Assembly (NCBI GenBank): GCA_040437565.1
Contig: JBDOQK010000012.1
Span: 186,001-250,000 of the forward strand
DNA: 64,000 nucleotides
Reading direction: 5' to 3'
Origin: Albugo candida
Taxonomy: Eukaryota
In this document: piece after piece, positions 1,107 through 54,852 of the stretch
Layout of the letters: every line of letters starts with the position of its first letter
Numbering within the stretch: position 1 is the first letter of the stretch
The notes under the pieces: model-generated
The model's input: only the letters and a program-made list of their open reading frames with translations
What the model was told of the DNA's origin: nothing
Databases searched by the model: none
Made by a program: the position numbers and the translations under genes

Positions 1107-3458
1107 TCAAGTCTGTTTCCGAGCATATCGTCGCTCAATATCTCGCATCTCCTGATCGTCGGAATCAGAGTCAATAAAGCAAATGGATCGGATTTTTGGG
1201 ATTGTAATGCTTTTAATTGCGCCCGTGTCCAATTGTGTTGTAAATGCGAGGCGATTCGATGGAATCTCCAGATGGGTTGGTGATGACAATGGCTCTGCGT
1301 CCATTTTGGGCGATATCGTACAAGCTGTATCCTGACTATCGGTGGGAGAAGTTTCTGCTTCTGTTGGGACGATGAGTGTCGGCGTTTGTGCATTTGTGTC
1401 CAATTTGCGGGTTTCAGCGTTTCCCTGATCCAGGAAAGAGTTGGTGGAAGAGATATCTGAATTCGAACAAGGTGAGCTGAGTTCAAGTGAGCTTAGCTCC
1501 GACTCGAATGCAACGTTGTGGTCCTCTTTGATACGTGGTGAGTGCACAATCTCCTGCAATTGACGCACTTGATCTTGTAAGCAGTGCAATTGCTTCTGTT
1601 GATGCTCGAGTATTTCTTGGTGCTGCAAAGTCAGCCGCTTCTGCATCTGACAGCAATCACGATCTGCTTTCACTGACGTCAAGCTTGTTGAGCTGCGATT
1701 GATGACGGTGATGCTTTTTGATCTTGATGGGTTCTCTGAAGTCTCCAATTTTTCCGGTCGCGAGCTTGCTACTGGGACGCATTTATCTTCTGCTTCGCTT
1801 GGATGTGATGGAGCCAAAAGCAGTGGCTTGGAGGACGTTCTCGTTTGTGTCCAATTTGAGCTCGTGTTAGCATCTGCTCGAGGACGAAAAACGAGATTTT
1901 CAGCGAGATTTCTTATTCCGATCGCACAAATTTGTGCGTCCGAAAGCACTGTTGTAATTTCTTTGACAGCGGCAGAGTGGATGGCTTCGATATAGTCTTC
2001 ACCATACTTGCATTCCAGAAAGCGAGGAAGGGCATTAGCAGCTTTGGATGTCGACGTTGAGGGAAATAAGACGACAAGGAAGCTGCTGGTTGTCGGTGTG
2101 ACCCGTTCACTGATAAGAGAAGAGAAGAAGAAGGAGACGCAAGTATCGTACAACACTTTGCTGACAGACAGCCTTGCACTGATTTCTTCCCATGTGCTCT
2201 CAAGATCCACAAGTCCGGCGATCCATACTCCGACGATCGGCCTTTTAGATACAAGTGGATCCATCTTTAACAGCGGAACTGCCTTTCGGAACTGATCCAG
2301 TGTCACGTAGCCATTATGATACTCTTTCGAGCCAAAATTTGCGCCATCACTGCCCATCAAAGACGAAACGATCGGTGTGCATAACAGTGGAAGGCTTTTT
2401 ATCATTGTGAATGTGAGAGGAATTCGTGGAAGAAAAATTTCCAGAACAGCTGTCGCGTTCTGCTTGCTGTTTCGTCTGATCAAAAGATGAGCCTACACTC
2501 AGCATTCAATCAATGAGTAAGGCCGTCGCAGACCCTCTCTGGTTGTCATACCTCGATAGCGTTGACAAAGATTTGGCTCCCATCAGTCTGATATCGCTTC
2601 TGTGTGTTTTGAAGCCTTTCTTGATACATTTCCTGCATGCCGCAATCAAACCATGGTCACAGTATCAAAATTGGAAGAGAAACAGACCTCTGTAGCCTGT
2701 AGAGACCCTGAACCTTCCTTTACGTTATATACTGGGAGCTTACAATCCGCATGAGACAACTGAGCATAGCGTTAGTACTCTGGATCTGACCAACCTCACA
2801 ATACCTTGGAATCAGATGCAAGCAGTTGTAATTTTGAGATCTCTCCCGCACGAGATAGCGTTTTGACCTGAAGCCATCCAATAGGCCCATGCAGACCAGA
2901 ATCGTGCCCCACATCCAGTAGCAATTGACTCACAATATCGGTTCGAATTTCAAATTTTGGTAATAGCTTTTCAAATACGATAGTAAAAGGCCCCGCGAGC
3001 ACTCGACGATCCCTTAACGTAAAAAATAAATAAACATTCGCATATTGAGACTTTTAAACGTACCATAAGACGCTTTTGACATTCGGAAAGTGAATCTCAC
3101 CAAAATGAAGTCGTTCTCCTTGTGTTGCAGGAAGGTGGCGCGTTTTTGCGCGTGATGCACAGAATGTCATCGAAGATCGATTAGATACGGGAGATACTGT
3201 CGTAAGTCGCATTGGAGGATGGGCGTGTTTGGTGCAATCATCGTCCTCACTGGAGTCCGGGAAAAATGAGCTTTTATGTTCAGTGATGTTTGGAGCGGTG
3301 TGTGGATCACTTGCAGTGACATTTTGCGCATCAAAAGGGTTCGTGGCAAGTGATTTTGGCTTGTTGAATGATCTTTGTGACTTGAAATTTGATATAGTCT
3401 GGTCGCTGTCGCTATAGTCGACATCAAAACGTTCAAAATCATCGAGCGGATGTGCCAT
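1107..3458 (-). CDS. STIL: STIL (SCL-interrupting locus)-like centriole assembly protein, multi-exon
   Basis: Exon 1 ends 'IHFPNVKSVLW' and joins through a GT-AG intron (3013-3063) to 'DRRVLAGP'. The last exon has 'GYVTLDQFRKAVPLLKMDPLVSKRPIVGVWIAG...CVSFFFSSLISERV...SFLVVLF', matching the STIL N-terminal domain. A coiled coil lies at ~1550-1640. Internal exon boundaries at 2480-2800 are approximate. Confidence 0.8.
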
Positions 3459-4060
3459 GGAAATCATTATAACGCATTGATTCCAATCAAGATTGTCTCG
3501 AATCAATTGGTTGAAATTATGTATTATTTATTCTGTGATTTGCTATAATAATCTCTTTCTGGATTGGACATAATTCGATTCTAATAAGAATCAGATGATT
3601 ACAAATGCTCGATGACATCATTGCTTTCGTTTAACTTGTCCAGCTGGCAGTCGGTGAAACGCTTTTAGTTTTAATAATATTTAAGATGACTGACCACATC
3701 TCACCTTCTTTTTTCGTATCCTATGAGGCTAAATATACTTCCAAGTCAATAATTCCTTTAAATGCACATATTTAATTGGTTTGTCGTATCAGATCGCTCT
3801 TATCTTCTATTTTTCATCAATCGAGCAGCTGATTCTGTGACATGTCGACTGGGAACTGCATAAAGATATTCTTGCGTGCTGTTCCAGCTTGCTGTACTAT
3901 CGAAAGAGGTTTTCTCATCTGTACTTTTTCTTTTCCCCTATTTTAAATCTCTCTCACTGAGCGACAAGCTTGAGATCTCGCTGCTGTTCGCATCCTTGTG
4001 TTACCTGCGACGCACGAATCCGGTTTCTCTGCTCTGTAATAGCTGTCTTTGGCAAGCGAT

Positions 4061-5809
4061 ATGGTCAAATTGATGACAAGTGCTGCAGCTGCACCTCGAA
4101 CATTGAATTATATGGCCGCATCCAGTCCGCTTAAACTAGGAGTACGTTCGCAAGGAGAGCAACCAAGAGGTATTTGGAGATCCGCAATATGGCAAGCAGG
4201 CTCTCTCGCACTTGGGAAATCAAGTACTGTAGCTGGACAGAATGTCAAACTGCATGACAATCAACTCACATTTGCGCATGAGGGGCCGCATACAAATTCT
4301 TTTGGACCTGTTTCGGACCTTCCGTACGCAGAATCGGCTATTTTGCGTGTGGACAAACAGGGAATCGACAACGTTGCACAGGCACTTAAAAAAAAGTCGC
4401 CTTGCGTCGACCTTTCCATTGCGGTTGCGGACAATAAATTGTCACGTGTGGGCTTTGATTACTGCAAAGTACAAGAGAAGCATTTAAAAACCGAAGGAGC
4501 GCAAGAAACTTTGCAAAAGTCTTCGATTTTGAATGAGCTGGACGAGTTCCAATGTACCTCTGAGCAGCGAATTCTCGTGTATCCAGACTACTTTTCGGAA
4601 GAAGAAAAAGAGATTGTGATCAAAGCAGCAGGATCTCTTGGTTTGGAGTATCAGAGGGGAGAAAGGAACCTTGTGGTTCTTAAGACCGGATCCGCTGATA
4701 AAAAAACCCATTTGCTTCGAAATTGCTCAATTAAAGAAGATCTGTTCGTTAATGTTACGGAGTTGGCTCAACATGGGAAAGAAAGGTTTGCTGCTCGGCT
4801 ACGCTTGCGCCGGATGAATTCTGGATCAGGAACCCGTAGAAATATGCTTTGGGATGTTGCTCAATTGAGCACCAGTGACGAAGGCATGGCCGACCCAGTG
4901 GAGGAAGGAGTAGGAGGAGTGTATACTGTTCAATCTCGTACGAGCGGCCAAAAATTAGCCATCTTCAAGCCGGCTGAGGAAGAAAGATTTGTTCGAGAAG
5001 GCTTACAACCAGGCGAAGGCGCAATTAGGGAAGAAGTTGCATATGTTCTGGATTCCAGGATGAATGGGTTTAGTGGTGTTCCACCCACAGCTGTTGCACG
5101 AATCAATCTTTCTGGTGCGGTGAGATCACAAAAAGGAGCAGTACAGCGTTTCATGTCGAGCCATAAGGGGAGCATGGAAGGATTCGGCATGCCACGTGAT
5201 ATAGTAAAAGCTGAGAAATTCGTCCTCGCTGAACAAGTGCATAGAATTGGGCTACTGGATATTCGCATGTTCAACACGGATCGTCACTCTGGTAATATTT
5301 TATTAATCGGCGAGAAGGCTCCATATACGATGGTTCCAATTGATCACGGCTGCATCTTACCGAGTTGGTTCCATCTGTCAGAAGCCCGGTTTGATTGGCT
5401 TCAATACCCTCAATGCGATGTTCCATTCGGCGCTCGAGCAATCGAATATGTCAACCAACTGGATGCTGATGCCGATGCTGTCATTTTACGCCGACTTGGA
5501 GTCCGTGAAGAGTGTATCATCACTATGAGAATATGTACCAAATTTCTCAAATTAGCCGTCGCAAACAACAAAACCCTTGCATGGATGGGGAAGTTTATGC
5601 AGCGTACAATGTGCTTTCGAAATGCCTCCAAGCTAGAACGCTGCATTCTCGAGGCGTGTGAGCAAATAAACCTTCCGTTTTCTATAGCATCCAATGAATC
5701 AAATGAGGACAAAGCGACAATCGCACTTGGAATTTTGAGTCGTAGGCCTCCAATTGCCTTTATGGAAAGTTTAGAGCGCATTCTACAGGAGAAATTGAAG
5801 GAAGAATGA
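4061..5809 (+). CDS. Type II (plant gamma-like) phosphatidylinositol 4-kinase family protein with a degenerate R3H-like N-terminal region
   Basis: Single long ORF with motifs GVGGVY, AIFKPAEEE, REEVAYVLD, GVPPT, GAVQRF, VHRIGLLDIRMFNTDRHSGNIL and PIDHGCILP. Confidence 0.9.
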   Translation: MVKLMTSAAAAPRTLNYMAASSPLKLGVRSQGEQPRGIWRSAIWQAGSLALGKSSTVAGQNVKLHDNQLTFAHEGPHTNSFGPVSDLPYAESAILRVDKQGIDNVAQALKKKSPCVDLSIAVADNKLSRVGFDYCKVQEKHLKTEGAQETLQKSSILNELDEFQCTSEQRILVYPDYFSEEEKEIVIKAAGSLGLEYQRGERNLVVLKTGSADKKTHLLRNCSIKEDLFVNVTELAQHGKERFAARLRLRRMNSGSGTRRNMLWDVAQLSTSDEGMADPVEEGVGGVYTVQSRTSGQKLAIFKPAEEERFVREGLQPGEGAIREEVAYVLDSRMNGFSGVPPTAVARINLSGAVRSQKGAVQRFMSSHKGSMEGFGMPRDIVKAEKFVLAEQVHRIGLLDIRMFNTDRHSGNILLIGEKAPYTMVPIDHGCILPSWFHLSEARFDWLQYPQCDVPFGARAIEYVNQLDADADAVILRRLGVREECIITMRICTKFLKLAVANNKTLAWMGKFMQRTMCFRNASKLERCILEACEQINLPFSIASNESNEDKATIALGILSRRPPIAFMESLERILQEKLKEE

Positions 5810-8069: not shown

Positions 8070-8230
8070 ATTTTTGTACGTTTCGAATTGAATTCGCTGC
8101 TACATATAGACCTCTGCTGGAGACGTTTAATCGGTTGATACGACTTTTGGACAAATTAGGCATCATGCCGATACGCCGTTCCTTTGAACTAAGACTAAAA
8201 GTCTCTACTTGATCGAGATTTTTGTGTAGA

Positions 8231-11200
8231 ATGAGCAAGGATTCCGGATTGAGGAATTATGGTGTACGCCTTTTCTTAGTGGAGCCATCCATTGCTTCTG
8301 TATCAGGTGGTTGCAAACTCATTATCCATGGCAAAGGTTTTGTTGGAACAGCCCAAATTCTTAAAGTGACTTTTTCGCAGCCGGAATTTGACCTCATGCC
8401 GCGTGTTCAGGTCAACGGAACCTACCGCTCTGACACTGTTATGGAATGCATACTTCCTGACTTGACACAACCAGTACACAGCTTTCTCACCAAATGCACC
8501 AATTCTGCTACAACTATAGAAGCAGTGAGATCATCTCCTTACTTAGTTCCTGTAGATATTTTTGTAACAATCGATGAATGTGTATCGAACTCAATGATTA
8601 TCTCCCTGCATCAAGAAATTCGCATACGAAAGGTGTCACCTCAGTACATCCTCACGTCGACGCCCGTATCGATCTGTACCACCATCAATCTGACATCAGA
8701 AGGCGACAATTCTATCCATCCTCAATGCACAACAAGAAAAGGCGAGAACAGAAGCTTAGATAATATCACAACTTTGCCTGTTTTCGTACGAGTACGATGC
8801 GGTTTCTCAAAGAATGGTGAGGCGCCTTGTGAGCAAATTCGAGAAGCTACTTGGAAGGTGTCTGCACTTGGTGCCTACAACGTTATCTTTCCAGCTCCGT
8901 TACTAGGGATTGGAGTTACCCGAATCCAGGTCTCTTTTACAAGAAAGCTTTTTTTCCCCAGTGACGAAATGAGCTCTGTCTCAAGACAGTACGTTGTTCA
9001 TAATGAAGTCCATTTGGATTCAATTGAACCACCATGCATTGTATTCAATTCTGGAATAAGTCCTGTGATAAAAATCAGAGGTCAAGGATTTGTTGATTCT
9101 GGGGAGATCACACTTTGCTTCCAGCAAAAGGGTGGAGAGAAACAGCGAGGAAAGCGAGAAGGGAACGATACAATTGAGCAGCCGAGCACGACAAAGATGT
9201 CAGGAACTTTGTTCTCAGGCGGCGAAATTCATTGCACGGGATTGAGATCCTCGTTCGGTCTCGCAAAGGTGTACGTCTCATTCAATAATGGTCAACAATA
9301 TAGCAAAGAAATGCTCCCAATATTGGTATGCCGGGAACGCAATTTATTTGGTACCTTTCCTCGGTATCTCTCTTTGAAGGGAGATGATTTGGTAAAGCTT
9401 CACGTCTCACGGCTTCCATCTGACGCAACTGATTGTTGGGAAAAACTGAGAGAGATAAGACCCTCCGGTAAGCTTTATGTGGAGCTTCAAGGTAGAAATA
9501 GAGATGGAATTCCCAATCAATTCCTTCGCAAACGAGTTCCCTTGGATTCCAGTACTGAAATGCATGGTGCAAATGATACAAATGATCCTATAATATACCA
9601 GTTTCAATTTCCATCCTTTTTCCAGCACATCGAGCCATTTGTCGAACTAGAACGTAACCTTTCAAGGACTGAACAATGCAACGATTCGGATTGTGCGAAT
9701 CAGTTTCTCAAAAGCGGCCTGATTACATTTTCCTGTTCCGTCATGTTTGGTGCCAGCTTACTGGCTGGCGATATCGACTTGGAATCTTACATACCACCTA
9801 TAATCACATCCGTTATCCATCAGCATGGACCAAGTACCGGAGAAACTTCTGTTTTCCTATCAATGAAGTATCAAGTTCCACAGAACATTCCCATTACCGT
9901 GAAATTCCAGTCCGCTTTCTCAGATATGAACGAGACTACCTCAGGGATTCGATCCAACACGTCAATTCATGGTAGATCCGTATCGGAGTTTATTGATGAC
10001 AAGACAGCAAGAGACGAAATAAAAAAACCGTCGAATCATGGTCTCGGAAATCCTGACTTTACTGTTGCGTGCTCCTCACCTGCATGGCAGCTTGGTTCTG
10101 TCGAGAATAGTCATCTTACTTTGGTACAGATTTCGTACAATGGAGGATATGACTTTTATCCCATATTGACGCGAACGAAGACTATGGATAAGACTAGTAC
10201 TCTCGGATGGAAGCTCGTACTCGGAAAAGTAAAAAGCATTGGTAAAGTGGATACAATACGGGAACCAAAGCAAGATTTGACATTCTTGCAGTTCCTATAC
10301 TACCGCAATCCAATTGTCAGTATGCTAACGCCAATTTCGGCCGATCAAAAAGGTGGAACTGTTCTTTCTCTCATGGGGTCAAACATTATCGATCATGGGC
10401 ACATCGCGATCGTGCGGTTCACGTCACCAGAGCTGTCAGAATGTGTTCCAAGCACCTTTATGGATGGTCAATTACGTTGTATCGCTCCTCCGTTTCGAGC
10501 TGGGTATACTGACATCTCAATTACGTTCAACAGCGAGCAGTACGATGTTTGCGATCTCACAGCGTCAGACAGCACTCGTCAAGGTCGTTTTCTATACTAT
10601 GAGACTCCATCAATTACCAGTTGTCGTCCTAGATGCCTATGCATACACAAGTCGAGCATTCTTCGGCTGCTGGGCACGAACTTTGTCGAAACTGGATCGA
10701 TCATGTTATCCTTTCATTCTCAGTCTACCAATAGCTTCAAGGCATTTTCTCATAAAGTCAAATCACCAGGGAGACTCGAAGCCGGGTCTGTTATTTGTGA
10801 CTCCCCTTTGCTAGCAAGTGAATTAGCTGGACAAAATCTCTCAATCTCAATTGCTCTGAATGGAGTGGATTTCATGGATACTGGGATAAGCTTGTACTGC
10901 TTCAGCTCTTACAAAATTATTCAGGTAGACCCCAAGATAGCTGTGAAAGGATTGCCAATCGCGTTAACTCTATATCTCGACCAAAAAGTTGAATCAGACT
11001 CTATACTACTACAGGTACAGCTGCTATGTCAGGAGACGAGTATCGTGCATTTGTATGGCCCCATTCAAGCCGACTTCTGGGAAGAAAATTGTGTCAGATT
11101 TGAATTTCCGGCCATTGATTCTATCATCAGTCCTATTCATAGGCTCAGTACTGCTCATGTCGCGATATCATTCGATGGACAAGACTATCACCAGCTTGGT

Positions 11201-14200
11201 GATCTTTTACAGCATTTTGAAGTTAGTGTCATGCCACAAGTATACAATGTATTTCCTCTTTGTGGTCTCTACAATCAAGACACAGTTATAAAAGCTCGAA
11301 GTGATCACCTGAAGAAATTTGATGGCAGACTTCAGCTCTACATCACATTGAAGATGGACCCGTTAGAAGGTCTGCGGAACACAGATTTCGTTGGTCACGT
11401 CGAAACAAGTTTGCGATTATCCTCAGACGCTGAAGATATGCTTACTTGGATATGTCCATCTATCATCAAAGTTATCTCACGAGATAGTAACACTGAATTC
11501 GCTCGTTCAGCTGTGCAATATTTGAAAGAAGATTCGGAACGAGAGGGCCAAAGTATCATCTTGAAACCTCGTCTTCACATGCAGCTATGTATAAACGAAG
11601 GTCAGCATCTTGGCCCATCGACTACTTTTCGGTATCTCCGTTTGCCAAGACTGATATCCATGTCTCCAATGATCGGATTTGTCACTCCTGGATCCATCAT
11701 CGCCTTGAAATTCCAGGAACCACTTGATCATACAAAAGTGTTTTTCAGATTTACTAAGGAATCATCGACAGCTGATACCACGTGTAGCTTCAGGGACGAG
11801 GAAAATGTAAGAAATGTGCTCGAGTGCCGCACACCGTTCCTGGTTAGTGGACGTCATTGGCTTTCCATCTCCTTGAATGGTCAGGATTTCTCGCTTCTCC
11901 ATTTTTACCGACCGGGAAATAAGGAACTGAAGAGCAACAATGAAGAAGGAATCAATCAGAATACTGACCATGCTTTAGATGCCAAATTGGCACAATTTAT
12001 AGCTTACAAGATACCAATGTATAAGGAAGCCCCAAGCATAAGTAAAAAGATCATAGGTAGCGGTATAGTCGATGGTCAGACGACAATACAGATTCACGGA
12101 AACGAATTTATCTCCAACCATCCCGTTTACGTCCGTTTCTATGCTGCTTTGAGCGAAGACAATACTGTCTGCGGGTCTTGTGAGGCAGTTGAGGCGATAC
12201 TTATTGACAGCAATACGATTGAGTGCAACTCGCCTCCAAGCAGCGTTCCCGGACTAGTGGAAATCTGCATCAGCTACAATTTACAACAATATGCCAGCAC
12301 ATTGCTCTATTTTGAGTATCACTTAGCTCCGGTTTTCAAGAATAGAGGCGAAGAATGCGGAAATGTGAAAGGAGGAACACGAGTCGTTGTCTCAATTGAA
12401 AATGAAAAGGTTGGTCTTCCTGCAAACAAAAGCGTGATATGCCCTGTCTTCCGATTTCAAAGTTGTGGAAATGGAAGGCTGAGTCAAAGTAGCGAGGTCA
12501 CCGCTATGTATGATGCTTCAACACATACAATGTCTTGTGTAGCTCCGACATGGAGAGGGAATGCGCTGGTGCAGATATTTATTTCTCTCACGACTCAACC
12601 TTTCACTAGATTTCTTCATACTGGCATCTATTTTGTCTATTATGATCATCCTGAAGGCTCAATGAAGCTTCTTCCAGCTGCTGGGCCTATAACAGGTGGA
12701 ACCAATGTGCACCTACACTGTGGTCACATTTCTGGTGCGGATGAGTGGGCGGTACAAATTACACCAGATGCTGCAAACGGTAGCATCAATCGTTCTGGCG
12801 GATGTGTTCCCGGAAAGAGAATTCCAACGACTTGCGACGAAATGGGGTTGGTACATTTTGAGACTCCAGCTACACGGAACTCTTATAATGCTCAAATCAG
12901 TCTTCTTGTTCACGGAATCAATATAACCTCTGCACATACGAGATCGTTACGCTTTACATATTTTCTATCTCCTATTGTGCATCAAATCTGGCCTCCATGG
13001 GTTGCGTCCGATACAGCCTTGACTGAAATCGTCCTTTTGGCTGACAACATACGAGACTTTGGCTGTTCCATCTTAGCTCGACTCGAAACGCACGTTGCTG
13101 GAAAAGGTCGTGTTGCTAAGACCTCAATCGGTTTTTGCAAAGATGGGAGGAAGGATGAGATTAGTAATACGCAAAGTATCATTGTACCTGCAGTAGTCGA
13201 TTATGCAACCATCCAAGACGACATCAGACGAGAACGAGGTCGAGCTCTGGTACGCTGTAACGTGTCCGAAATTCAGATTCTTGCTGGGTACTATGAAATC
13301 GAGCTAAGCCTGAATGAACAGCAGTATTCCCAGTCCGCGTATACGAATGCATCTGTTGCAAATTACAGCGGTCTCCCATGTACCTCACCCAATCCATTCC
13401 GTGTGTTTTCGGCTCCTTTCTTTCTCGCAACTCATTTGGGACCTATGGCAGGTGGACCAACAATAACAATCTTTTTCAGCAAACGTGTGGGGCAATTTCT
13501 GGCGAAAGAAAACAAATGTCAGCTTCAATTTCTACCCATTTCAAAATTGAAAGGGGAGAGTTTTAAAGGCTTAGACGAAGAACAAAGTAAACTCGACACT
13601 CCTGTTGCCTTGTATGTGCCGGCCGAAATCGATCACAAAAGTACCCGAATTGTTTGTAAAGCACCGTCCTTCCGAAATAATTGCAAAGTGGAAGTAGATA
13701 TCATCATGTCGTACGCCTCTGTACTATCCGTACTTGCAGCAATCGATCGCCTGCATAAAAATGAGCTTACAGCATCTATAACACTTCCACCACCTGGAAC
13801 AGCATCATGTTCTATTCTTCAAATGTTTGGAAGCAAAGAGAACGACAAATACTGCACATACCAATCTCCTTCGATCAGTGAGATGACACCTTCCTGTGGA
13901 CCGACGAAAGGCAATACGTTGGTTGTGATACAAGGCCATGGAATCATTGATACTGGTCAGGTATTTGTACGATTTCGTTCGAGTAGCAACGAACGTGATT
14001 TGGTTCTAGTTCCAGGAAAGGTTAGCCTTTCGTTTCCTAATGGAGAAACGAGCAAACTACCACTCATTTTATGTGAGACACCGAGCATTTCATGGTCGGA
14101 AATTGGGGCACCTATCACCAACATAGAAAATTCTTACCCACAAGAAGCGCCAATACGCTGCTTGGGGAGAGCTCGGACGCATATGAGCGTTGTACTAGCT

Positions 14201-17200
14201 TCCTGTAGCTTGCAACGACGTAATGAATCTGTCAGTCAGTCTAACAAAGCCGTTCATACTCTGCACTTGACTCGTGCAGATTCAACCCGAAGTACGACTC
14301 ACAAATCAAAAAGTCCTGGATCACCAGTGGCTAAAGATGGCTCAAAATCTGGAGATATCAAAACTAAAACATCTATTCTCCATGATTCGAGTCATCTTGT
14401 TCTCGTAGACTTCACACTCAATGCAGGAGAGCAATTTATCACACATAGTGTTCCCTTTTACTACTACACGGAACCAGAAACCACCAATGTCAAATGGAGT
14501 CCGCGAGAATTTCCGTCCCAAACAACACATCGCTACGGCTCTGTTAATCGAATTTTGACAGTCAAATTCCCACCTCAGTGTTATCCTTCCGCATTGAATG
14601 ACAACTTTGGTGGCCGGATAGCGTTTTGGTTTGATGGTTTATCAGCAAAGATCACCTCAGAATGTTACGATACATCTACAAAACTTCATGACAATGACAT
14701 GAACTGCCATCTTTGCACATTCCAGATCTCTCATCGCAAAGGAAGTTGTACCTCTCCTATCAGATTAGAACCTACGACCACAAGTACTACCCATAAAGCC
14801 ATGGACGCATCCAGCACGAAAGCAAGCTACCGTGAAGGAGGTGCTGATTTGAATACCACAGAATCCCATCGCCCTGATCGTAACAAACCTATCTATTACA
14901 TTGCGGCAAGCTCTTCTCGGGCCCAGGAAATTACATGCAACGTCCCCGAATTTTTCGAGACAGGAAATGTGAGAGTTTTATTCTCATTTAATGCACAGCA
15001 GTTTATCTACTTGGGAGATCTCGGAATTCATCAGCCATTGTATATTGAACAGCACGAAGCTCATCGATATTGCTCATGTCTTGGCTCGGAGCCATTTCGA
15101 CTAAAGAGCTCTATATCGAGTCTACTTTCTTCAATTCCAGCTCATGACATCTCTAACCAGGTATCACTCAGTCGAGAGCGGAACGCAGTGAACAATGTGA
15201 TACGATGTCAGGCAGCAGAGGATACGGTTTTGAAGGAGAAAGAGACTTCTTTTTGGGGGGCAAGAGGCCTTCGTTTGAATACTTGGAGAAAAAGAACCTA
15301 TCAACAGATTCGTGTTCATCTCGCTCTTGCAAAAAGTGAGAATGAGTACGGGAAAGAAAAGTACTACAAAAAGAAAATTATTGTGTCAGTATGTCGCACC
15401 AGCATTGATCATGTCATATCGAGCAAAAGTGTGGATGATGAAGGGGAGTGCGTCTTTGAATCATCCGACTGGACAAAAGAGATCCATTTACATGCTCAAG
15501 TGATTTTGGACGCGGTATCGTCAGAAGCAGCATTTACCGAGTATTCAGCATCGTATGCGGAGTTTTATCGAGATAATCAGCCCCCAGAAAATAGTGAAAA
15601 TGGAATGAGCCACCCAATCGACATTATCTTGCTTCAAAGAACGACACAACACATTTGTCAAGCTACTCAACCCATTCGACCTTCATTATACGTCGCCTTG
15701 AAAGTTTTCTCCACTGAACATGTTTTCTCACAAGTTGATGTTAAACTCATTATTACAAATGAAAAAAGCATTATGCATGAAGATCAATCCAAACGTGCAG
15801 GAAAAACGGACGATTTTATCTGCCAAACAGAGGCTTACAACGATGCAACCCTTAATGTAGTTAAACTTGATGTATCACAGCTCGCATCAAGCCCATTCGT
15901 CATAGGTGTTGCGTTCCGATTTGATAGTTCTCCGTCTGGGTTATGCTCGACCGTGTTCAAAGAAGTCCAAGTGATTGTCTATGATAGTTGTACGACGTTT
16001 GCCTATTTTACTTTGGAAGAAATTCCAACATTGCGTAGTTCTGAAGGTAATGTAGGATCGTGCATTTGGATGGTGGCCAAAGGCTCAGTAGCTGATAAAT
16101 CATCACTGGATCTCCTTAAAATCAATGAATTTGGAAGTTCTTGGAGGAAATGGACCGAAGAAAGCGCACCGAAGAAAACAGGAGAAGTGATTGTGGATTC
16201 TGCGTTACTCAACACCGCATCTAAACCCTCTTGTAAAAAATCGAACGTGCTCGAGTCTATCATGGTTCAATTTTCAGGATCCACTGCCACCGGTAGATTT
16301 TCTATTGAAGTACCTGGGAGGCTGATTTTCCCGGAAAAATTCTCTTTATCAACTCTGATGTCCGAGCAGAACAATAGTGAGACATATAAGATGATTGAGA
16401 TTTCCTGTGTCCCTCCGTCCACTTTATTAGATGGTTATGTGAGCGTGTCGATTATGTTTCAAGGTGTGAGATTTTCCAACACGCTTTTATACCAGTGCTA
16501 CGATCCAAGAAAGTGGGCAATCAAAAATGCTACTCCCTCGCTTATCGTCCATGGATCAACATCATTATTTCGTCTTAAAGGAGGACAGTTTATTGACACT
16601 GGGAAGATATGCGCACGCATTGTGGACTTGAAGGGATCCCAGGTTTTAGATGTACGGGCAGATATGGAGAGAACCTGGAGCATCTATATTCGTTCTGTAA
16701 GTGTTCGGCAAGTTAAAGAGTCCCGTTTATCGAACTGCGGGCTTTCCAAAGATTCGTTGAACTCCNNNNNNNNNNNNNNNNNNNNNNNNNNNNNNNNNNN
16801 NNNNNNNNNNNNNNNNNNNNNNNNNNNNNNNNNNNNNNNNNNNNNNNNNNNNNNNNNNNNNNNNNGAAGTGATTGTGGATTCTGCGTTACTCAACACCGC
16901 ATCTAAACCCTCTTGTAAAAAATCGAACGTGCTCGAGTCTATCATGGTTCAATTTTCAGGATCCACTGCCACCGGTAGATTTTCTATTGAAGTACCTGGG
17001 AGGCTGATTTTCCCGGAAAAATTCTCTTTATCAACTCTGATGTCCGAGCAGAACAATAGTGAGACATATAAGATGATTGAGATTTCCTGTGTCCCTCCGT
17101 CCACTTTATTAGATGGTTATGTGAGCGTGTCGATTATGTTTCAAGGTGTGAGATTTTCCAACACGCTTTTATACCAGTGCTACGATCCAAGAAAGTGGGC

Positions 17201-20200
17201 AATCAAAAATGCTACTCCCTCGCTTATCGTCCATGGATCAACATCATTATTTCGTCTTAAAGGAGGACAGTTTATTGACACTGGGAAGATATGCGCACGC
17301 ATTGTGGACTTGAAGGGATCCCAGGTTTTAGATGTACGGGCAGATATGGAGAGAACCTGGAGCATCTATATTCGTTCTGTAAGTGTTCGGCAAGTTAAAG
17401 AGTCCCGTTTATCGAACTGCGGGCTTTCCAAAGATTCGTTGAACTCCACCAGTGATGTAAGTGGAGCTACTTTGGCTGACACCAGGCCATCCAGCGCACG
17501 TCCTGCGACCACATACACCAAAAATATAGACACTCGTCGTCTCGAGCTTCTCTTGTCGATAACGTATGGTAATTGCAAGGTTGTTAGCAGTAGCGTACGG
17601 GAGGTTAACCTTTCTATGGGAGGATCCAATATTGACCTGATTACCCCGGCACTATTATGGGATGAGTCATTTGAGCTTCAAGCAGAAAATCAAGATCAAT
17701 CTCTCATCATCTCTTTGAGGGTCAAGGAGCGATCGGACAACTCTGGCCCAAACAATGGAGCAATTTCGGAACTGGTGAGAAGTGTTTTATCGATAAAGGA
17801 TCTCGCAAGTAATGAGCTCTATCAGAAAAGCGTTCCTATGCAGCAAGTTTTCAAGCCGTCTCTATCTTTATCAAACACACAGAAGTATTGGACGAGCTCA
17901 TTGGAACTCGACCTCGCTGTGCAAGTCTCAGTTCCTGTGCTAAATACAAACTGTCTAAGCTGTCGACCAGATTTTAGATCATCACCGATCAATTCCATGT
18001 CCGATTTTAACGAGCCTTATCCGCTGTACATACAAATTTTTGGAGAAAATGACTACTTGATGTGTGCTGATACGAGAAACGTCCAAGTGCGTGGACTCGA
18101 TACAGATAGCCCAGATAATGACTATGCAGTTGCACAGGGCTTCACTGTTTATCTATACCGATTTCCAGTGATTTATGAGACCATTCCGTGTGTCTTACCC
18201 AGGTCAACTGGAGGGCACATTCGTATTCGAGGCTCTAATTTTATGTTACCGGCTCAAGAAAACGTAGTCATTCGATTATTTGGATGCAAATCAACGCCAG
18301 AGAATGAACACGACTTGTTGTACCCTACTTCTCTGCTGGAAAGTATCAATGTGCTCTCTCAACCACATGATGGAACGAACGAGTTTCTTATCTTTGACAT
18401 AAAGGGGGTCGTTTCGACATTAACCGAACTCACGTGCGAAATTCCAGCTTTTTTAAGCAGCTTCCGCGTGTTTTTTAGGGTGTCTTTGGATGGTGGCATC
18501 ACTTTTTCTCAGGCTACAAAAGCTACGCAATTACTTTTGTTTAGCGTCGACAAAGTTGAGCCTTGCGCTGGACCAAACACAGGCAAAACTTATGCTGCCC
18601 TATGCGGTACAAATATCAATGCTTGTCTGTCGTTCCTGTCAACCTGGATTCGAAAAGCTCACGTGCGATTGAAATGGATGAAAAATGGTCGAGAACTTGA
18701 GCGTAAAATCATCACTGCGGAGCATTATTCTCCAGAAGATATTGTCTACTTTCACACACCACAAAGTCCTTTTCGGCTGGAGAATTTGTCTCTCCAGATT
18801 GAGCTTTGCCTAGGCGGTGTGCCTCAACCAACAACGAAGCGGGACCTTATACTGGACATTGACAGTAGCGATGAGATACGAAAAACTGAGCAAACTCCAT
18901 GTACATTTAGCCTCGACGGTGCTTTATTCTACACGTACCGATCTCCAACTATTAAATCCATAACGCCGGTAGCAAACTTACTTCCCGGGATCACAGGTCT
19001 CGAAATGGTTCTACAAGGAATCGATGAGATTGGAGTTTCACGTCTTAGTCATCTATTTCGCGCGCGATTTTGTTGTCGAGGGCAGATGCAAACTTCAGGT
19101 CTGGCTCTACATAACGGAGGGAGGATGACTACTATTTTACCTCGGTTCAATGTGCGCAATGCCACGTCAGTCGAACTCGTACCAGAAACAAGCAAGCAAA
19201 AGTCAGTCAACAGAGTCCTGCGTCGTGAGACCAAGTCTGAGCATTGCGGAATTATCTCTGAGAATGATTATCGAGTCCAAATGTATCGAGTAAATTCAAC
19301 GTTGCGCAAACCGCAACGTCTTAAAGCTGATTATATGAAACGATCTGAAAATTTTCCACCGACAAAATCCTTGACTTTATGGACAAGGAAATCAGGACTC
19401 GTGGTTTGCGTGGTACGAGGTCATAAATTTCGGCCATCCGAAAAAGGAACATGCAATTCGTTTGTTATCATCAATTGCGGAAAAAAGGAGCAGCTTCGCA
19501 CAACAAGAAGAGATGGTTCCTTCGACCCGGTATGGAACGAGGTACTGGAATTCGACGCTGCATGCTTGGATACCTCTCAAGACATTGCGAAGGACGGAAC
19601 TCCGATGCAAGAGGTGATGTTATATATCTCAATCTACAACCAGGTGAATGACCAGCATTGCGAGACGCTCGGCTCTATAGATCTTCTACTGTCACGTGTC
19701 AGCGGTGAGAGTTTTACTTTTCGTGGATCTTTTTCTATCCATCGTTCATCTTCCAAATATCAGATTCAAAAGATCAATGATTTATCTACATCGAATGTAC
19801 CGAGTGGAGTGACACCATATGCGTCACAACATTATGGAATGCTAGAACTTTCGATTATCTTTGTGCCCCAAGCTCGATCCAGAAGCTCTTATGCAGGGAT
19901 GATGCAATTAGCGGCTTCAAAAACGCTCTCTTCTGCCGTAAGATCGCGCACCAGATCTTCATCCACATTTCTGAAGCGAGATTCCGAAAATCATGGTGCG
20001 ACTTCAAGATCAAATGATCAGATTATCTCAACACGCACACAGACAGGGGGCAACAAGAACAGAAAGAAATCAGATAAAGGCTCCGACAATGAACGATTAG
20101 CTCGTATTTTCACTTCCAATCTATCAAACTTCTCAGCAACGATACCGACTGAGATATCCGCCGAGATGGCGCTGAATGGGCAAGATTTTAGCTCTGTAGC

Positions 20201-23200: not shown

Positions 23201-23453
23201 AGCAAAGAAAATTCGATGTCCCGAAAGACCTTTGCAATCGGATCAGAATGTTTCGCGCTCGAACCGCGGGACTGCAGCGGGACGGAATATAGTGAGTAAA
23301 GCTGTTGACAGAATCGCACAAGCGGAGTTTTCGAAAGGAGAAGACATCGGTGACATCAAAAAGACTCTGGTAGAAAAATGTGAGTCACGTCCCCCGGATG
23401 CACCATTTTTACAAGACATCGCACCAATGTACACAAGACTTTTGAAACGATGA
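8231..23453 (+). CDS. Giant (~4,744 aa after collapsing gap duplications) IPT/TIG-repeat protein with C2 domains, 4 exons
   Basis: Exons 8231-20865, 20922-21448, 21512-22350 and 22400-23453 join in frame through GT-AG introns of 56, 63 and 49 nt. About 20-25 repeats of the form P..G...GGT.v.I.G..F...C..P...vS.NG..f. C2 motif 'VVRGHKF...CNSFVIINCG...RTT...DPVWNEVLEF'. Confidence 0.8.
16184..17447. other. Assembly gap (100 N, 16766-16865) with 582-bp duplicated overlap
   Basis: 16184-16765 is repeated at 16866-17447. Confidence 0.95.
22570..22745. other. Assembly gap (100 N, 22608-22707) with 38-bp duplicated overlap
   Basis: 22570-22607 is repeated at 22708-22745. Confidence 0.95.
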
Positions 23454-54688: not shown

Positions 54689-54852
54689 AAACCGGTAATT
54701 CTGATCTGTCTCTCACTTTTTATAAAAAGCATCACGTGGACCTCCATAGATGGATACGGCAACTGCCACATACTGTATTAGCTGTATTTGCACAAAAGTA
54801 TCCAGTTTACAAACACTTTTGATTCACAGAATTGAGCTTTGAAAATCTAGAA

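What the first reader, a model, noticed from the sequence alone, without database searches (positions are those of the whole stretch)
1107..3458. STIL homolog with apparently complete architecture in a non-animal (oomycete-like) genome
Seen: the STIL N-terminal blocks (FP.KS.LW; GY.TLD..RK...L..DP.....P.VG.W; ERV...F.VVLF), a short central coiled coil 'QEILEHQQKQLHCLQDQVRQLQE' (~1550-1640), and a C-terminal 'IPKIRSICFIDSDSDDQEMRDIERRY' (~1107-1200). Established: animal STIL/Ana2/SAS-5 binds PLK4 through its central coiled coil and SAS-6 through a STAN motif that ends '..I.LKYL', and the PLK4-STIL module is usually described from animals. Inference: the last block is a divergent STAN motif, so a SAS-6-loading STIL could act at oomycete basal bodies, possibly without PLK4.
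Basis: partly seen in the sequence, partly recalled or inferred. Interest (0 to 1): 0.75.

Follow-up and report, generated by a model that had tools for sequence, protein, structure and literature searches.

The report
STIL centriole-assembly homolog in Albugo
A white-rust oomycete gene encodes a genuine relative of the animal centriole-building protein STIL, keeping its folded head, its coiled coil and probably the first piece of its SAS-6-binding tail, so this family is much older than animals.

Summary
Window 1107-3458 (minus strand) carries a five-exon gene. Its 713-aa product equals Albugo candida KAL0589465.1 apart from three extra N-terminal residues. UniProt already labels the Albugo protein 'STIL N-terminal domain-containing protein'.

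Homology to animal STIL is certain for the N-terminal domain: Pfam 63.5 bits; profile-profile E=1.1e-27 over 317 columns; Foldseek E=7.8e-20 to the Trichoplax STIL NTD. It is well supported for the coiled coil (P=1.7e-4; 0 of 100 shuffles). It is moderately supported for the C-terminal motif. That motif aligns to 'PRLNY..DLSMEANAIALKYL', which is only the start of STAN (P about 0.002; 1 of 150 shuffles; plain HMMs do not reach animals).

The architecture is not complete. The second STAN half (S1108/S1116) and a KEN tripeptide are absent. The CPAP-binding proline motif is not detectable.

The column of the PLK4 site S1061 is Asp/Glu in 41 of 43 non-animal relatives, which fits PLK4-independent binding.

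Against an exclusively basal-body role, full-length orthologs with intact modules persist in Hyaloperonospora arabidopsidis. That species is reported to lack all surveyed centriole proteins.

SAS-6 and PLK4 could not be examined because no genome was held.

Verdict: new member of a known family, moderately interesting.

The parts
3064..3458 (-). Exon 1 (ATG at 3458-3456). Encodes a disordered N-terminal extension and the start of the STIL N-terminal domain ('IHFPNVKSVLW').
   Evidence: Model. The product is identical to KAL0589465.1 from its residue 4. That record starts three codons upstream. Contigs of runs X1 and X2 cover it and are spliced at 3063/3011.
2805..3012 (-). Exon 2, STIL N-terminal domain subdomain 1.
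   Evidence: The 51-nt intron upstream (3013-3063) is skipped in contigs of X1, X2 and X7.
2760..2804 (-). Intron 2, 45 nt, GT..AG with TACTAAC 12 nt before the AG. It holds an in-frame TGA if retained.
   Evidence: Both NCBI protein records remove it. In one search the only contigs across it (2687-3011 in X1, X2, X7) are unspliced, so its removal is inferred from homology and not seen in RNA.
2688..2759 (-). Exon 3.
   Evidence: The 55-nt intron downstream (2633-2687) is skipped in contigs.
2552..2632 (-). Exon 4.
   Evidence: The 59-nt intron downstream (2493-2551) is skipped in contigs.
1107..2492 (-). Exon 5 (stop codon at 1109-1107). Encodes the STIL_N core, linker, coiled coil, Ser-rich block and C-terminal motif.
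   Evidence: A 461-aa ORF. Pfam STIL_N E=1.1e-17.
1857..3095 (-). STIL N-terminal domain (model residues 122-464), spread over all five exons.
   Evidence: hhalign of 11 oomycete against 10 animal sequences: Prob 99.8, E=1.1e-27, 317 columns. AF2 pLDDT mostly 78-97, with one 10-residue block at 66-70, over residues 130-465. Foldseek 5oi9_B E=7.8e-20, TM 0.70 by target. phmmer to 5oi9_A E=3.3e-5.
1542..1658 (-). Central coiled-coil helix 'DCCQMQKRLTLQHQEILEHQQKQLHCLQDQVRQLQEIVH'.
   Evidence: AF2 helix 534-572 in P0152 numbering. The oomycete CC profile finds the animal STIL CC as its best site in 893 columns: P=1.7e-4, score 32.7, against a maximum of 13.0 in 100 column shuffles. Self-pairing model: score 0.35, best of 3 controls 0.01.
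1413..1493 (-). Ser-rich block ('SSLELSS..') conserved among oomycetes. Role unknown.
   Evidence: Conserved block in 11 oomycete orthologs. No significant match in animal STIL: E=0.59, and 2 of 100 shuffles reach it.
1110..1211 (-). C-terminal motif 'SITIPKIRSICFIDSDSDDQEMRDIERRYARKQT': a P[KR]I[KR] element, an acidic/Ser run and a terminal helix.
   Evidence: Conserved in 11 oomycetes and, after two HMM rounds, in 26 non-oomycete STIL_N proteins at i-E<1e-3, with the best of 2,120 decoys at 0.79-2.6. AF2 helix 699-715, pLDDT 82-87. Best hhalign site in animal STIL is 'P.lNY..DLSMEANAIALKYL': P=0.0023, and 1 of 150 shuffles reaches it. In the full-length comparison E=0.0014.
3237..3437 (-). 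Two short acidic/Ser motifs in the disordered N-terminal extension ('FERFDVDYSDSDQTIS' at 3437-3390; 'SSFFPDSSEDDD' at 3272-3237).
   Evidence: The second is a conserved block among 11 oomycete orthologs. Both are visible in the ortholog sequences. Coordinates. pLDDT <50. Function unknown.

Best explanation
The gene is the Albugo candida ortholog of the STIL/Ana2 family of centriole-cartwheel assembly factors.

Shown:
- It encodes a long, mostly disordered protein with three ordered modules in the same order as in animal STIL.
- The first module is a complete STIL N-terminal domain (Atg7-NTD/MPN-like fold).
- The second is a short central coiled coil, predicted to pair in parallel and in register.
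- The third is a C-terminal helix preceded by 'IPKIR' and an acidic/Ser run.

Inferred mechanism:
- The coiled coil makes the protein an oligomer.
- The C-terminal helix is the counterpart of the first SAS-6-binding part of the animal STAN motif and tethers SAS-6.
- The protein thereby promotes cartwheel formation when centrioles duplicate at mitosis and when basal bodies form for zoospores.

The residue aligned with the PLK4 site S1061 is Asp or Glu in oomycetes, and the S1108/S1116 part of STAN is missing. This binding would therefore be constitutive, or set by an acidophilic kinase acting on the neighbouring Ser residues, rather than switched by PLK4.

The same three-module design, with the helix at the very C-terminus, is shared by many non-animal STIL_N proteins. 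It is probably the ancestral form, to which animals added the second STAN half and the C-terminal tail.
For: Gene model and identity:
- The 713-aa product equals KAL0589465.1 residues 4-716.
- Three of four introns are skipped in contigs of two runs of one study, and in a third run of identical record sizes.

N-terminal domain:
- Pfam STIL_N 63.5 bits against a cut-off of 27.
- hhalign E=1.1e-27 over 317 columns.
- PDB 5oi9_A E=3.3e-5.
- AF2 plus Foldseek: 5oi9_B E=7.8e-20, TM 0.70 by target, followed by Atg7 NTDs as in Liu et al. (PMC5928214 passages).

Coiled coil:
- The best site in 893 animal columns is the STIL CC: P=1.7e-4, and 0 of 100 shuffles reach it.
- The dimer model supports pairing but does not show it. 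The score is 0.35 and the best of 3 controls is 0.01. That mark was reached by 21 of 30 proteins solved as pairs of one chain and by 0 of 23 solved as single chains. On eukaryotes it was reached by 17 of 29, but by only 1 of 7 without an older solved relative. The runs agree in at least 90% of contacts and the partner pLDDT is at least 76. Because animal coiled coils of this family have been solved, the pass may come from memory.

C-terminal motif:
- The family HMM finds 26 non-oomycete members, with decoys at i-E 0.79 or worse.
- The best animal site is the block ending 'IALKYL': P=0.0023, with 1 of 150 shuffles reaching it; E=0.0014 in the full-length comparison.
- All three hits are collinear.
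- The Tyr is invariant in a 46-sequence alignment that includes 7 animals.
- The S1061 column is D/E in 19 of 19 oomycetes and 22 of 24 other non-animals, and S in 11 of 11 animals.
- Ohta et al. report that a phosphomimetic S1061 STAN binds HsSAS-6 without Plk4 (PMC4220463 passages).
- The review by Dong states that the C-terminal 15 residues of SAS-5 form a helix that binds the SAS-6 coiled coil (PMC4554922 passages).

Phylogeny: the gene tree follows oomycete taxonomy.
Against: - No SAS-6 or PLK4 sequence of this organism could be examined, so the partner is inferred only.
- The link of the C-terminal motif to STAN is moderate. Plain HMMs built from 37 non-animal sequences give animals only i-E 12-54. 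The hhalign probability is 12.6-17.9%. One of 150 column shuffles scored higher.
- Pfam CC_STIL does not hit the Albugo coiled coil even at E<=10.
- The second STAN part, which Ohta et al. and Moyer et al. found most important (S1116), is absent.
- The CEP85-contact residue L64 is not conserved: L in 7 of 7 animals, E/Q/D in 15 of 17 oomycetes.
- The CPAP-binding PRxxPxP motif is not found in any oomycete ortholog.
- Full-length orthologs with highly conserved modules persist in Hyaloperonospora arabidopsidis. [quoted passage not shown]
- The 45-nt intron needed for the full reading frame was seen only unspliced.
Confidence: 0.5

Rival explanations
1. It is a true STIL-family protein, but its main selected role in oomycetes is independent of centrioles and basal bodies. 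It could, for example, act as an oligomeric adaptor at an acentriolar spindle pole or in another cell-cycle process. The C-terminal helix would then bind a partner other than SAS-6.
For: - Orthologs of 890-971 aa are present in Hyaloperonospora arabidopsidis, H. brassicae, three Peronospora species, Bremia lactucae and Peronosclerospora sorghi.
- In these species the coiled coil and the C-terminal motif are almost unchanged.
- Their modules are far better conserved than their linkers: NTD 65-73%, CC 82-89% and C-terminal 40 residues 72-83% identity to P. ramorum, against 25-48% in linkers.
- The CEP85 and CPAP contact motifs of animal STIL are not conserved.
Against: [quoted passage not shown]
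- Its list of proteins is in an .xls supplement that I could not read, so I do not know whether SAS-6 was covered.
- That the other downy mildews are aflagellate is recalled, not checked. The paper even says some Peronospora keep zoospores.
- Downy-mildew branches are 1.2-2.4 times longer than Phytophthora branches. This could mean partly relaxed constraint.
- No non-centriolar function of the conserved modules is established in any organism, as far as I recall.
Confidence: 0.25
2. Only the N-terminal domain and the coiled coil are homologous to animal STIL. The C-terminal 'PRIK..acidic..IExKY' motif is a separate short linear motif of non-animal lineages that resembles the start of STAN by chance or convergence.
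For: - HMMs of the motif do not reach animal STIL (i-E 12-54).
- The hhalign probability is only 12.6%.
- One of 150 column shuffles beat the observed score.
- The motif is short and compositionally biased (acidic run).
- In animals the block lies about 200 residues from the C-terminus, whereas in non-animals it is terminal.
Against: - The best site for the motif profile in 893 animal columns is the STAN start, with two separate anchors aligned (P[RK][IL].[YF] and I..[KR]Y[L]).
- The full-length comparison finds the same pair independently as its second-best hit, collinear with the NTD and CC hits.
- The Tyr, the Ile at -4 and the Lys/Arg at -1 are shared by 11 of 11, 10 of 11 and 11 of 11 animals, and by 43, 35 and 42 of 43 non-animals.
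- Most non-oomycete members end 'KYL' like animals (20 of 24).
Confidence: 0.3
3. The locus does not give a full-length protein in Albugo. The 45-nt intron is retained, translation stops two codons into it, and the STIL-like part is an untranslated relic.
For: In one search the only contigs across 2760-2804 (runs X1, X2, X7) are unspliced. An in-frame TGA follows two codons after the exon-2 end.
Against: - Contigs drop rare variants and cannot show absence (tool note).
- Unspliced forms of the other introns are also present in the same runs, beside the spliced ones.
- The intron has GT, AG and a TACTAAC box.
- The downstream 461-codon frame is open and conserved, and the NTD folds as one unit across this junction.
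- Two Albugo strains differ by only 4 of 713 residues.
Confidence: 0.04

Closest known systems
Vertebrate STIL (SCL/TAL1-interrupting locus protein; human 1287 aa)
   Same: Complete N-terminal domain (E=1.1e-27 over 317 columns). Central coiled coil with the 'Q.RQL..LQ.QI..L' pattern. The 'P[RK][IL].[YF] ... I..[KR]Y' block at the start of STAN. Same order of modules.
   Different: - About half the length.
- No detectable PRxxPxP CPAP-binding motif.
- No second STAN part with S1108/S1116, and no KEN tripeptide. That a KEN box belongs to STIL is recalled.
- Asp instead of the PLK4 site S1061.
- The CEP85-contact L64 is replaced by Gln.
- Pfam CC_STIL is not matched.
Drosophila Ana2
   Same: Short protein with a central coiled coil that self-associates. 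Ana2 forms a tetramer according to the abstract of PMC4471874 (search listing). It also has a C-terminal SAS-6-binding region. Stevens et al. define STAN from Ana2 and STIL (PMC2819680 passages).
   Different: As I recall, Ana2 lacks the large N-terminal domain. No Ana2 sequence was fetched or compared here. Ana2 STAN is about 90 aa with four Plk4-phosphorylated serines (PMC4554922 passages), whereas the Albugo motif is about 30 aa and acidic.
C. elegans SAS-5
   Same: The SAS-6-binding element is a helix formed by the last 15 residues of the protein (PMC4554922 passages). This is the position of the Albugo helix, which ends 1 residue before the C-terminus.
   Different: No sequence comparison with SAS-5 was made here. 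SAS-5 has an Implico dimerisation domain and no STIL_N domain (the first from the same passages, the second recalled).
Trichoplax adhaerens STIL N-terminal domain, PDB 5OI9/5OID
   Same: Same fold: Foldseek E=7.8e-20, TM 0.70 by target, 358 alignment columns on a 326-residue chain.
   Different: 12% sequence identity. In 5OID the domain binds human CEP85 cc4 through a patch that includes L47/R50 (human L64/R67) (PMC5928214 passages). That patch is not conserved in oomycetes.
Atg7 N-terminal domain
   Same: Next-best fold matches (E=1.7e-8 and weaker), as Liu et al. noted for the STIL NTD.
   Different: Fold resemblance only (TM 0.38-0.44 by target for the NTD-only chains). There is no Atg7 adenylation domain and no sequence match.

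Membership tests
STIL/Ana2/SAS-5 family | Pfam STIL_N (PF15253) above the gathering score | tested here: met
   63.5 bits, E=2.3e-17, cut-off 27, on the full protein. 64.5 bits on exon 5 alone. Only profile positions 168-289 of 404 are matched by Pfam.
STIL/Ana2/SAS-5 family | Whole N-terminal domain present and folded like a solved STIL NTD | tested here: met
   hhalign covers 317 columns, P0152 residues 125-467. AF2 pLDDT mostly 78-97. 5oi9_B E=7.8e-20, TM 0.70 by target.
STIL/Ana2/SAS-5 family | CEP85-binding patch of the NTD (human L64, R67; Liu et al. 2018) | tested here: not met
   In alignment A2 the L64 column is L in 7 of 7 animals and E/Q/D in 15 of 17 oomycetes (2 gaps). Albugo has Gln and Leu at the two columns. 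The alignment in this helix is of modest reliability.
STIL/Ana2/SAS-5 family | PRxxPxP (CR2) motif that binds the CPAP/SAS-4 TCP domain | tested here: inconclusive
   No oomycete ortholog matches the patterns P[RK]P.P.P.P or P.P.P.P[HLQ]P, while 10 of the 11 sequences taken as animal do. Many other non-animal relatives have 'TP.PR..P.P' at the collinear place, and Albugo has only 'CVPVAS'. The profile lands on the animal CR2, but E=0.5 and 2 of 100 shuffles reach it.
STIL/Ana2/SAS-5 family | Central coiled coil matched by Pfam CC_STIL (PF25775) | tested here: not met
   No hit at E<=10 on window:1521-1670:-. The model does hit the mammalian P0112 at 62.2 bits.
STIL/Ana2/SAS-5 family | Central coiled coil homologous to the STIL coiled coil by profile-profile comparison | tested here: met
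   The best site in 893 columns is P0112 residues 712-731, inside its CC_STIL match. P=1.7e-4, score 32.7, shuffle maximum 13.0 (0 of 100).
STIL/Ana2/SAS-5 family | Self-association of the coiled coil | tested here: met
   Model only; it supports pairing and does not show it. Score 0.35 and best of 3 controls 0.01. The mark was reached by 21 of 30 proteins solved as pairs of one chain and by 0 of 23 solved as single chains. On eukaryotes it was reached by 17 of 29, but by only 1 of 7 without an older solved relative. The runs agree in at least 90% of contacts and the partner pLDDT is at least 76. The contacts are parallel and in register. The pass may come from memory of solved coiled coils of this family.
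STIL/Ana2/SAS-5 family | STAN motif, first SAS-6-binding part (human aa 1061-1083, 'DLSMEANAIALKYL..') | tested here: inconclusive
   hhalign P=0.0023 and E=0.0014. One of 150 shuffles reaches the score. HMM searches do not reach animals, i-E 12-54. Tyr, Ile(-4) and Lys/Arg(-1) are shared.
STIL/Ana2/SAS-5 family | STAN motif, second part with the PLK4 sites S1108/S1116 (human aa 1106-1147) | tested here: not met
   The Albugo protein ends 5 residues after the Tyr, and oomycete orthologs end 5-11 residues after it. The upstream Ser-rich block does not match it (E=0.59).
STIL/Ana2/SAS-5 family | C-terminal KEN box (feature recalled, not from a call) | tested here: not met
   The tripeptide KEN is absent from the 713-aa product.
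STIL/Ana2/SAS-5 family | Direct binding to SAS-6 | not testable with these tools
   No genome is held for the window, and no SAS-6 sequence could be obtained.
STIL/Ana2/SAS-5 family | PLK4/ZYG-1 partner kinase in the same genome | not testable with these tools
   No genome is held. That PLK4 is absent outside opisthokonts is recalled. The two surveys I wanted to check are not held.
STIL/Ana2/SAS-5 family | Localisation to procentrioles, and requirement for centriole duplication | not testable with these tools
   Needs experiment.

The most novel reading that the evidence does not exclude
STIL is not an animal invention but an ancient eukaryotic protein. Its ancestral form ended in a short, constitutively acidic SAS-6-binding helix. 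Animals later replaced the acidic residue by a serine, added a second STAN half and so put cartwheel assembly under PLK4 control. In downy mildews that lost flagella and the surveyed centriole genes, the protein survives under purifying selection, which would reveal a second, centriole-independent essential function of the STIL family.
Probability: 0.3. Interest if true: 0.75.

Novelty: new member of a known kind. Interest (0 to 1): 0.5.

Why it matters
Centriole duplication is usually explained through the animal PLK4-STIL-SAS-6 module. Reviews read here call SAS-5/Ana2/STIL poorly conserved (PMC7667884 passages; PMC4471874 abstract in the listing).

A clear ortholog in oomycetes and ochrophytes gives a concrete candidate for how SAS-6 is recruited in organisms without PLK4. 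It has the head domain, the coiled coil and a recognisable start of STAN.

It also suggests which residue change turned a constitutive contact into a kinase switch: acidic to Ser at the S1061 column.

Its persistence in an aflagellate downy mildew makes it possible to test whether STIL proteins have a function outside centrioles.

The gene itself is already in databases with an automatic STIL_N label. What is new is therefore the reading of its architecture and distribution, not the discovery of a new kind of system.

Tried and rejected
- Whole genome: none held. Searches for SAS-6 and PLK4 and a co-fold with SAS-6 were therefore impossible.
- Word-index protein searches gave almost nothing: 2 hits for exon 5 and 2 for the 30-sequence alignment A1.
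- Pfam on exons 1 and 2 alone: no family.
- Pfam on the coiled coil and on the C-terminal 137 residues at E<=10: none.
- HMM route from the non-animal C-terminal motif to animal STAN: not significant, i-E 12-54.
- Idea that the oomycete Ser-rich block is a displaced second STAN half: rejected, E=0.59 and 2 of 100 shuffles reach it.
- CR2-like proline motif: lands at the right place but is not significant.
- ESM Atlas: no usable hit, and its own model has pLDDT 0.33.
- Sequencing runs: no RNA holder listed. The runs laid are labelled 'RNA?' by guess, and X5 gave only unspliced fragments.
- Names of relatives: organism names for only 4 of the 20 proteins looked up, so the distribution outside stramenopiles and animals stays unknown.
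- Papers: ten searches found no paper describing STIL in oomycetes or other stramenopiles. The one paper holding 'STIL', 'oomycetes' and 'centriole' does so only through its reference list.
- Papers not held: the two 2010 phylogenetic surveys of centriole proteins that I recalled.
I did not try to open it. It may list whether SAS-6 was among the centriole proteins missing in H. arabidopsidis.
- Rejected: gene-prediction artefact, contamination or horizontal transfer. The gene has spliceosomal introns, and its tree follows oomycete taxonomy.
Full report
**1. What is there**

The region holds a minus-strand gene. The largest piece is a 461-codon open frame at 1107-2492, which alone matches Pfam STIL_N (E=1.1e-17, 64.5 bits, cut-off 27).

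Reading the strand and joining frames at GT..AG sites gave five exons: 3458-3064, 3012-2805, 2759-2688, 2632-2552 and 2492-1107. The introns are 51, 45, 55 and 59 nt, and the product is 713 aa.

An exhaustive HMMER search of 1.84 billion representatives found 185 relatives at E<=1e-3, 20 at E<=1e-10 and 8 at E<=1e-30. Cluster look-up showed that the window is Albugo candida. My product is identical to KAL0589465.1 from its residue 4; that record starts three codons earlier. It differs at 4 of 713 residues from CCI48641.1, which UniRef names 'STIL N-terminal domain-containing protein'. The gene is therefore already in databases with an automatic domain label.

Contigs of public runs X1 and X2 (one study), and of X7 (same record sizes as X1, possibly the same data filed twice), skip exactly the 59-, 55- and 51-nt introns, with CT..AC ends on the plus strand. 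Spliced transcripts therefore exist. The 45-nt intron (2760-2804) appears only unspliced in those contigs. If retained it gives a TGA after two codons. Contigs cannot show absence, so this stays open.

Neighbours are a TRAPPC8 C-terminal region (1-1101, +) and a PI3/PI4-kinase gene (4043-5809, +). Nothing centriolar lies beside the gene.

**2. Anatomy**

I aligned 46 family members (A2) and used the alignment for an AlphaFold2 model. The model has three ordered parts:
- a globular domain at residues about 130-465 of P0152 (pLDDT mostly 78-97, with one 10-residue block at 66-70);
- a single long helix at 534-572;
- a terminal helix at 699-715 (pLDDT 82-87).

Nearly everything else (1-124, 466-530 and 577-696) is below pLDDT 50.

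Among 11 oomycete orthologs chosen by rank and name, the conserved blocks are the same three parts. In addition there are a Ser-rich block and an acidic 'FF.DS.DD' motif in the N-terminal extension.

**3. N-terminal domain**

A profile of the 11 oomycete proteins aligns to a profile of 10 animal STIL proteins over 317 columns (P0152 residues 125-467 against animal residues 37-371). Probability is 99.8% and E=1.1e-27. This is the whole domain, not only the 122 profile positions that Pfam reports.

phmmer finds the solved Trichoplax STIL NTD (5oi9_A, E=3.3e-5). Foldseek with the model puts 5oi9/5oid first (E=7.8e-20, TM 0.70 by target), followed by Atg7 N-terminal domains. This matches what Liu et al. 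describe for the STIL NTD (PMC5928214, passages).

The CEP85-contact residue L64 is not conserved: Leu in 7 of 7 animals and E/Q/D in 15 of 17 oomycetes.

**4. Coiled coil**

Pfam's 29-position CC_STIL model hits a mammalian STIL (62.2 bits) but not the Albugo helix, even at E<=10.

I compared a profile of the oomycete helix with the 893 alignment columns of animal STIL downstream of residue 400. Its best site is exactly the animal coiled coil ('ILE.QQRQL..LQ.QI..L' on 'LL..QDRQLKLLQAQIQ.L'). P=1.7e-4 and the score is 32.7. One hundred column shuffles of the target gave at most 13.0.

A two-copy model of residues 526-584 supports self-pairing without showing it. The score is 0.35 and the best of 3 controls is 0.01. 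That mark was reached by 21 of 30 proteins solved as pairs of one chain and by 0 of 23 solved as single chains. On eukaryotes it was reached by 17 of 29, but by only 1 of 7 with no older solved relative. The runs agree in at least 90% of contacts, the partner pLDDT is at least 76, and the contacts are parallel and in register. Coiled coils of this family have been solved, so the pass may be from memory.

**5. C-terminal motif**

All oomycete orthologs end alike: 'SF.[IV]P[RK]IK[FY]', then 8-20 residues, then 'DSDDEE.R.IE.KY[KR]' and 5-11 more residues.

I built an HMM of the last 45 residues of the 11 oomycete proteins. I searched it against the 106 other session proteins of 300 aa or more, plus 2,120 shuffled decoys. 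It found 20 non-Albugo proteins before the first decoy at E=0.17. After iteration, 26 non-oomycete proteins matched at i-E<1e-3, with the best decoy at 0.79-2.6.

In 38 of 39 matching representatives the motif ends within 45 residues of the C-terminus (most of these sequences trained the model, so this describes the family and is not a test).

The named members are Achlya hypogyna, Chrysoparadoxa australica and an Ochromonadaceae species. The remaining members that were looked up are unnamed environmental proteins.

No animal was reached by the HMM (i-E 12-54).

Profile-profile comparison does connect the two groups. The best site of the 37-sequence motif profile in the 893 animal columns is 'P.lNY(10-12)DLSMEANAIALKYL' (P=0.0023, probability 12.6%). 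One of 150 column shuffles scored as high, and the reversed target scored 19.6 against 26.8. The independent full-length comparison gives the same pairing as its second hit (E=0.0014) and the coiled coil as its third (E=0.03), all collinear.

Counted from the Tyr:

| Offset from Tyr | Residue | Oomycetes | Other non-animals | Animals |
|---|---|---|---|---|
| -4 | Ile | 19 of 19 | 16 of 24 | 10 of 11 |
| -1 | Lys/Arg | 19 of 19 | 23 of 24 | 11 of 11 |
| +1 | Leu | 1 of 19 | 20 of 24 | 11 of 11 |

I rate homology of this block at about 0.65.

**6. How the block relates to STAN**

- Stevens et al. defined STAN as about 90 residues near the C-terminus of Ana2 and STIL (PMC2819680, passages).
- Moyer et al. 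place it at human residues 1061-1147, with the PLK4 sites S1108 and S1116 (PMC4477857, passages).
- Ohta et al. raised their phospho-S1061 antibody against 'NGVDL[pS]MEAN'. They showed that residues 1061-1083 and 1106-1147 are both needed for HsSAS-6 binding. They also showed that a phosphomimetic S1061 STAN binds HsSAS-6 without Plk4 (PMC4220463, passages).

The oomycete motif corresponds to the stretch just before STAN plus its first dozen residues. The second part has no counterpart, because the proteins stop a few residues after the Tyr. The upstream Ser-rich block does not match it either (E=0.59).

The column of S1061 (offset -10) is Ser in 11 of 11 animals. It is Asp/Glu in 19 of 19 oomycetes and in 22 of 24 other non-animal members. 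It remains an inference.

A review states that in C. elegans SAS-5 the last 15 residues form the helix that binds the SAS-6 coiled coil (PMC4554922, passages). That is a positional parallel to the terminal helix seen here.

**7. What is missing**

- The patterns for the CPAP-binding proline motif match 10 of the 11 sequences I took as animal and none of the oomycete orthologs.
- Other non-animal relatives often carry 'TP.PR..P.P' at the collinear place. Albugo has only 'CVPVAS' there.
- The profile lands on the animal motif without significance (E=0.5; 2 of 100 shuffles).
- No KEN tripeptide is present. That a KEN box belongs to STIL is recalled.

**8. Distribution and the flagellum question**

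A search with the Phytophthora ramorum ortholog listed 31 proteins. Among them are eight or more Phytophthora species and also the following:
- Hyaloperonospora arabidopsidis (947 aa) and H. brassicae;
- Peronospora belbahrii, P. destructor and P. matthiolae;
- Bremia lactucae and Peronosclerospora sorghi.

All of these cover 100% of the query.

Their coiled coil and C-terminal motif are nearly identical to those of Phytophthora. Their modules are much better conserved than their linkers: NTD 65-73%, CC 82-89% and last 40 residues 72-83%, against 25-48% in linkers.

[quoted passage not shown] They add that it is unknown whether it has centrioles, and that most oomycetes use centrioles at mitosis (PMC3471859, passages). 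Their gene table is an .xls supplement that I could not read.

That the other downy mildews listed are aflagellate is my recollection. The same paper says that some Peronospora keep zoospores. Only H. arabidopsidis is therefore documented here.

Downy-mildew tips are longer than Phytophthora tips in the gene tree (0.59-0.83 against 0.35-0.51 from their common node). Without a control gene, this cannot separate relaxed constraint from generally faster evolution.

This retention is real evidence against a role confined to basal bodies. It is the basis of the first rival explanation.

**9. Comparison with what is known, and novelty**

The protein passes the family tests for the N-terminal domain and, by profile comparison, for the coiled coil. 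The result is inconclusive for the first STAN part. It fails the tests for the second STAN part, the CEP85 patch and Pfam CC_STIL. Binding to SAS-6, a PLK4 partner and localisation could not be tested.

I file it as a member of the STIL family with a reduced, probably ancestral, C-terminal design.

Ten full-text searches found no paper on STIL in oomycetes or other stramenopiles. A Toxoplasma review says STIL is not encoded in T. gondii (PMC7750520, passage). The two 2010 surveys that I recall as restricting STIL and PLK4 to animals or opisthokonts are not held, so that statement rests on recall.

Databases already label these proteins by domain. The finding is therefore a new member of a known kind, with two testable ideas attached: the acidic S1061 column, and retention after flagellar loss.

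**10. Verdict**

Confidence that this is a true STIL-family ortholog is about 0.95. Confidence that it works as described, as an oligomeric SAS-6 tether at centrioles and basal bodies without a PLK4 switch at the S1061 position, is about 0.5. Interest is 0.5.

Noticed in passing
window 2760-2804 (-): The 45-nt second intron is the only one of four seen solely in unspliced form in contigs of runs X1, X2 and X7. If retained it places a TGA two codons after exon 2. This could be regulated intron retention or an assembly effect.
   Followed up: partly
window 3237-3272 and 3390-3437 (-): Two short acidic/Ser motifs lie in the disordered N-terminal extension. 'SSFFPDSSEDDD' falls in a conserved block among the 11 oomycete orthologs. 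'FERFDVDYSDSDQTIS' has visible counterparts in the ortholog sequences. An unnamed 1275-aa relative (P0075) has 'SSFFPDGDDDDD'. They look like acidophilic-kinase sites. Function unknown.
   Followed up: no
window 1413-1493 (-): Oomycete-conserved Ser-rich block 'SSL.LSS....LSS.SSS'. It superficially resembles 'VGLSLIS' of the second STAN half but lies on the other side of the KY block. The resemblance is not significant (E=0.59).
   Followed up: yes
proteins P0019, P0025, P0038, P0058, P0133 and others (alignment A1, columns 963-1036): Many non-animal STIL_N proteins carry '[DE]..TP.PR....P.P' between the N-terminal domain and the coiled coil. This is the place of the animal CPAP-binding PRxxPxP motif. 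It is not significant by hhalign and is degenerate in Albugo and the Peronosporales.
   Followed up: partly
window 8213-23453 (+): A run of very long open frames (2897, 1386, 290 and 361 aa) with IPT/TIG domains and a C2 domain. Probably one giant multi-exon gene.
   Followed up: no
window 43796-45551 (+): SRP54 is split over two overlapping frames (43796-44917 and 44787-45551) that both contain the SRP_SPB domain. This points to an intron or a local duplication.
   Followed up: no
window 33345-35255 (-), 38650-42627 (-), 46554-47408 (+), 54823-55851 (+), 58920-61499 (+): Other genes in the window are a kinesin motor, a full ABC transporter, an ataxin-10 domain protein, a D-2-hydroxyacid dehydrogenase and two ankyrin proteins (the second with a FYVE finger). 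None is an obvious centriole gene.
   Followed up: no
orthologs P0004, P0005, P0190, P0193, P0194, P0197, P0200: Downy-mildew orthologs sit on longer branches than Phytophthora orthologs (0.59-0.83 against 0.35-0.51 from the common node), while their three modules stay conserved.
   Followed up: partly
runs X1 and X7: The two runs, filed under different studies and organism codes, gave contigs of identical lengths and depths. They are probably one data set filed twice and should count as one.
   Followed up: no
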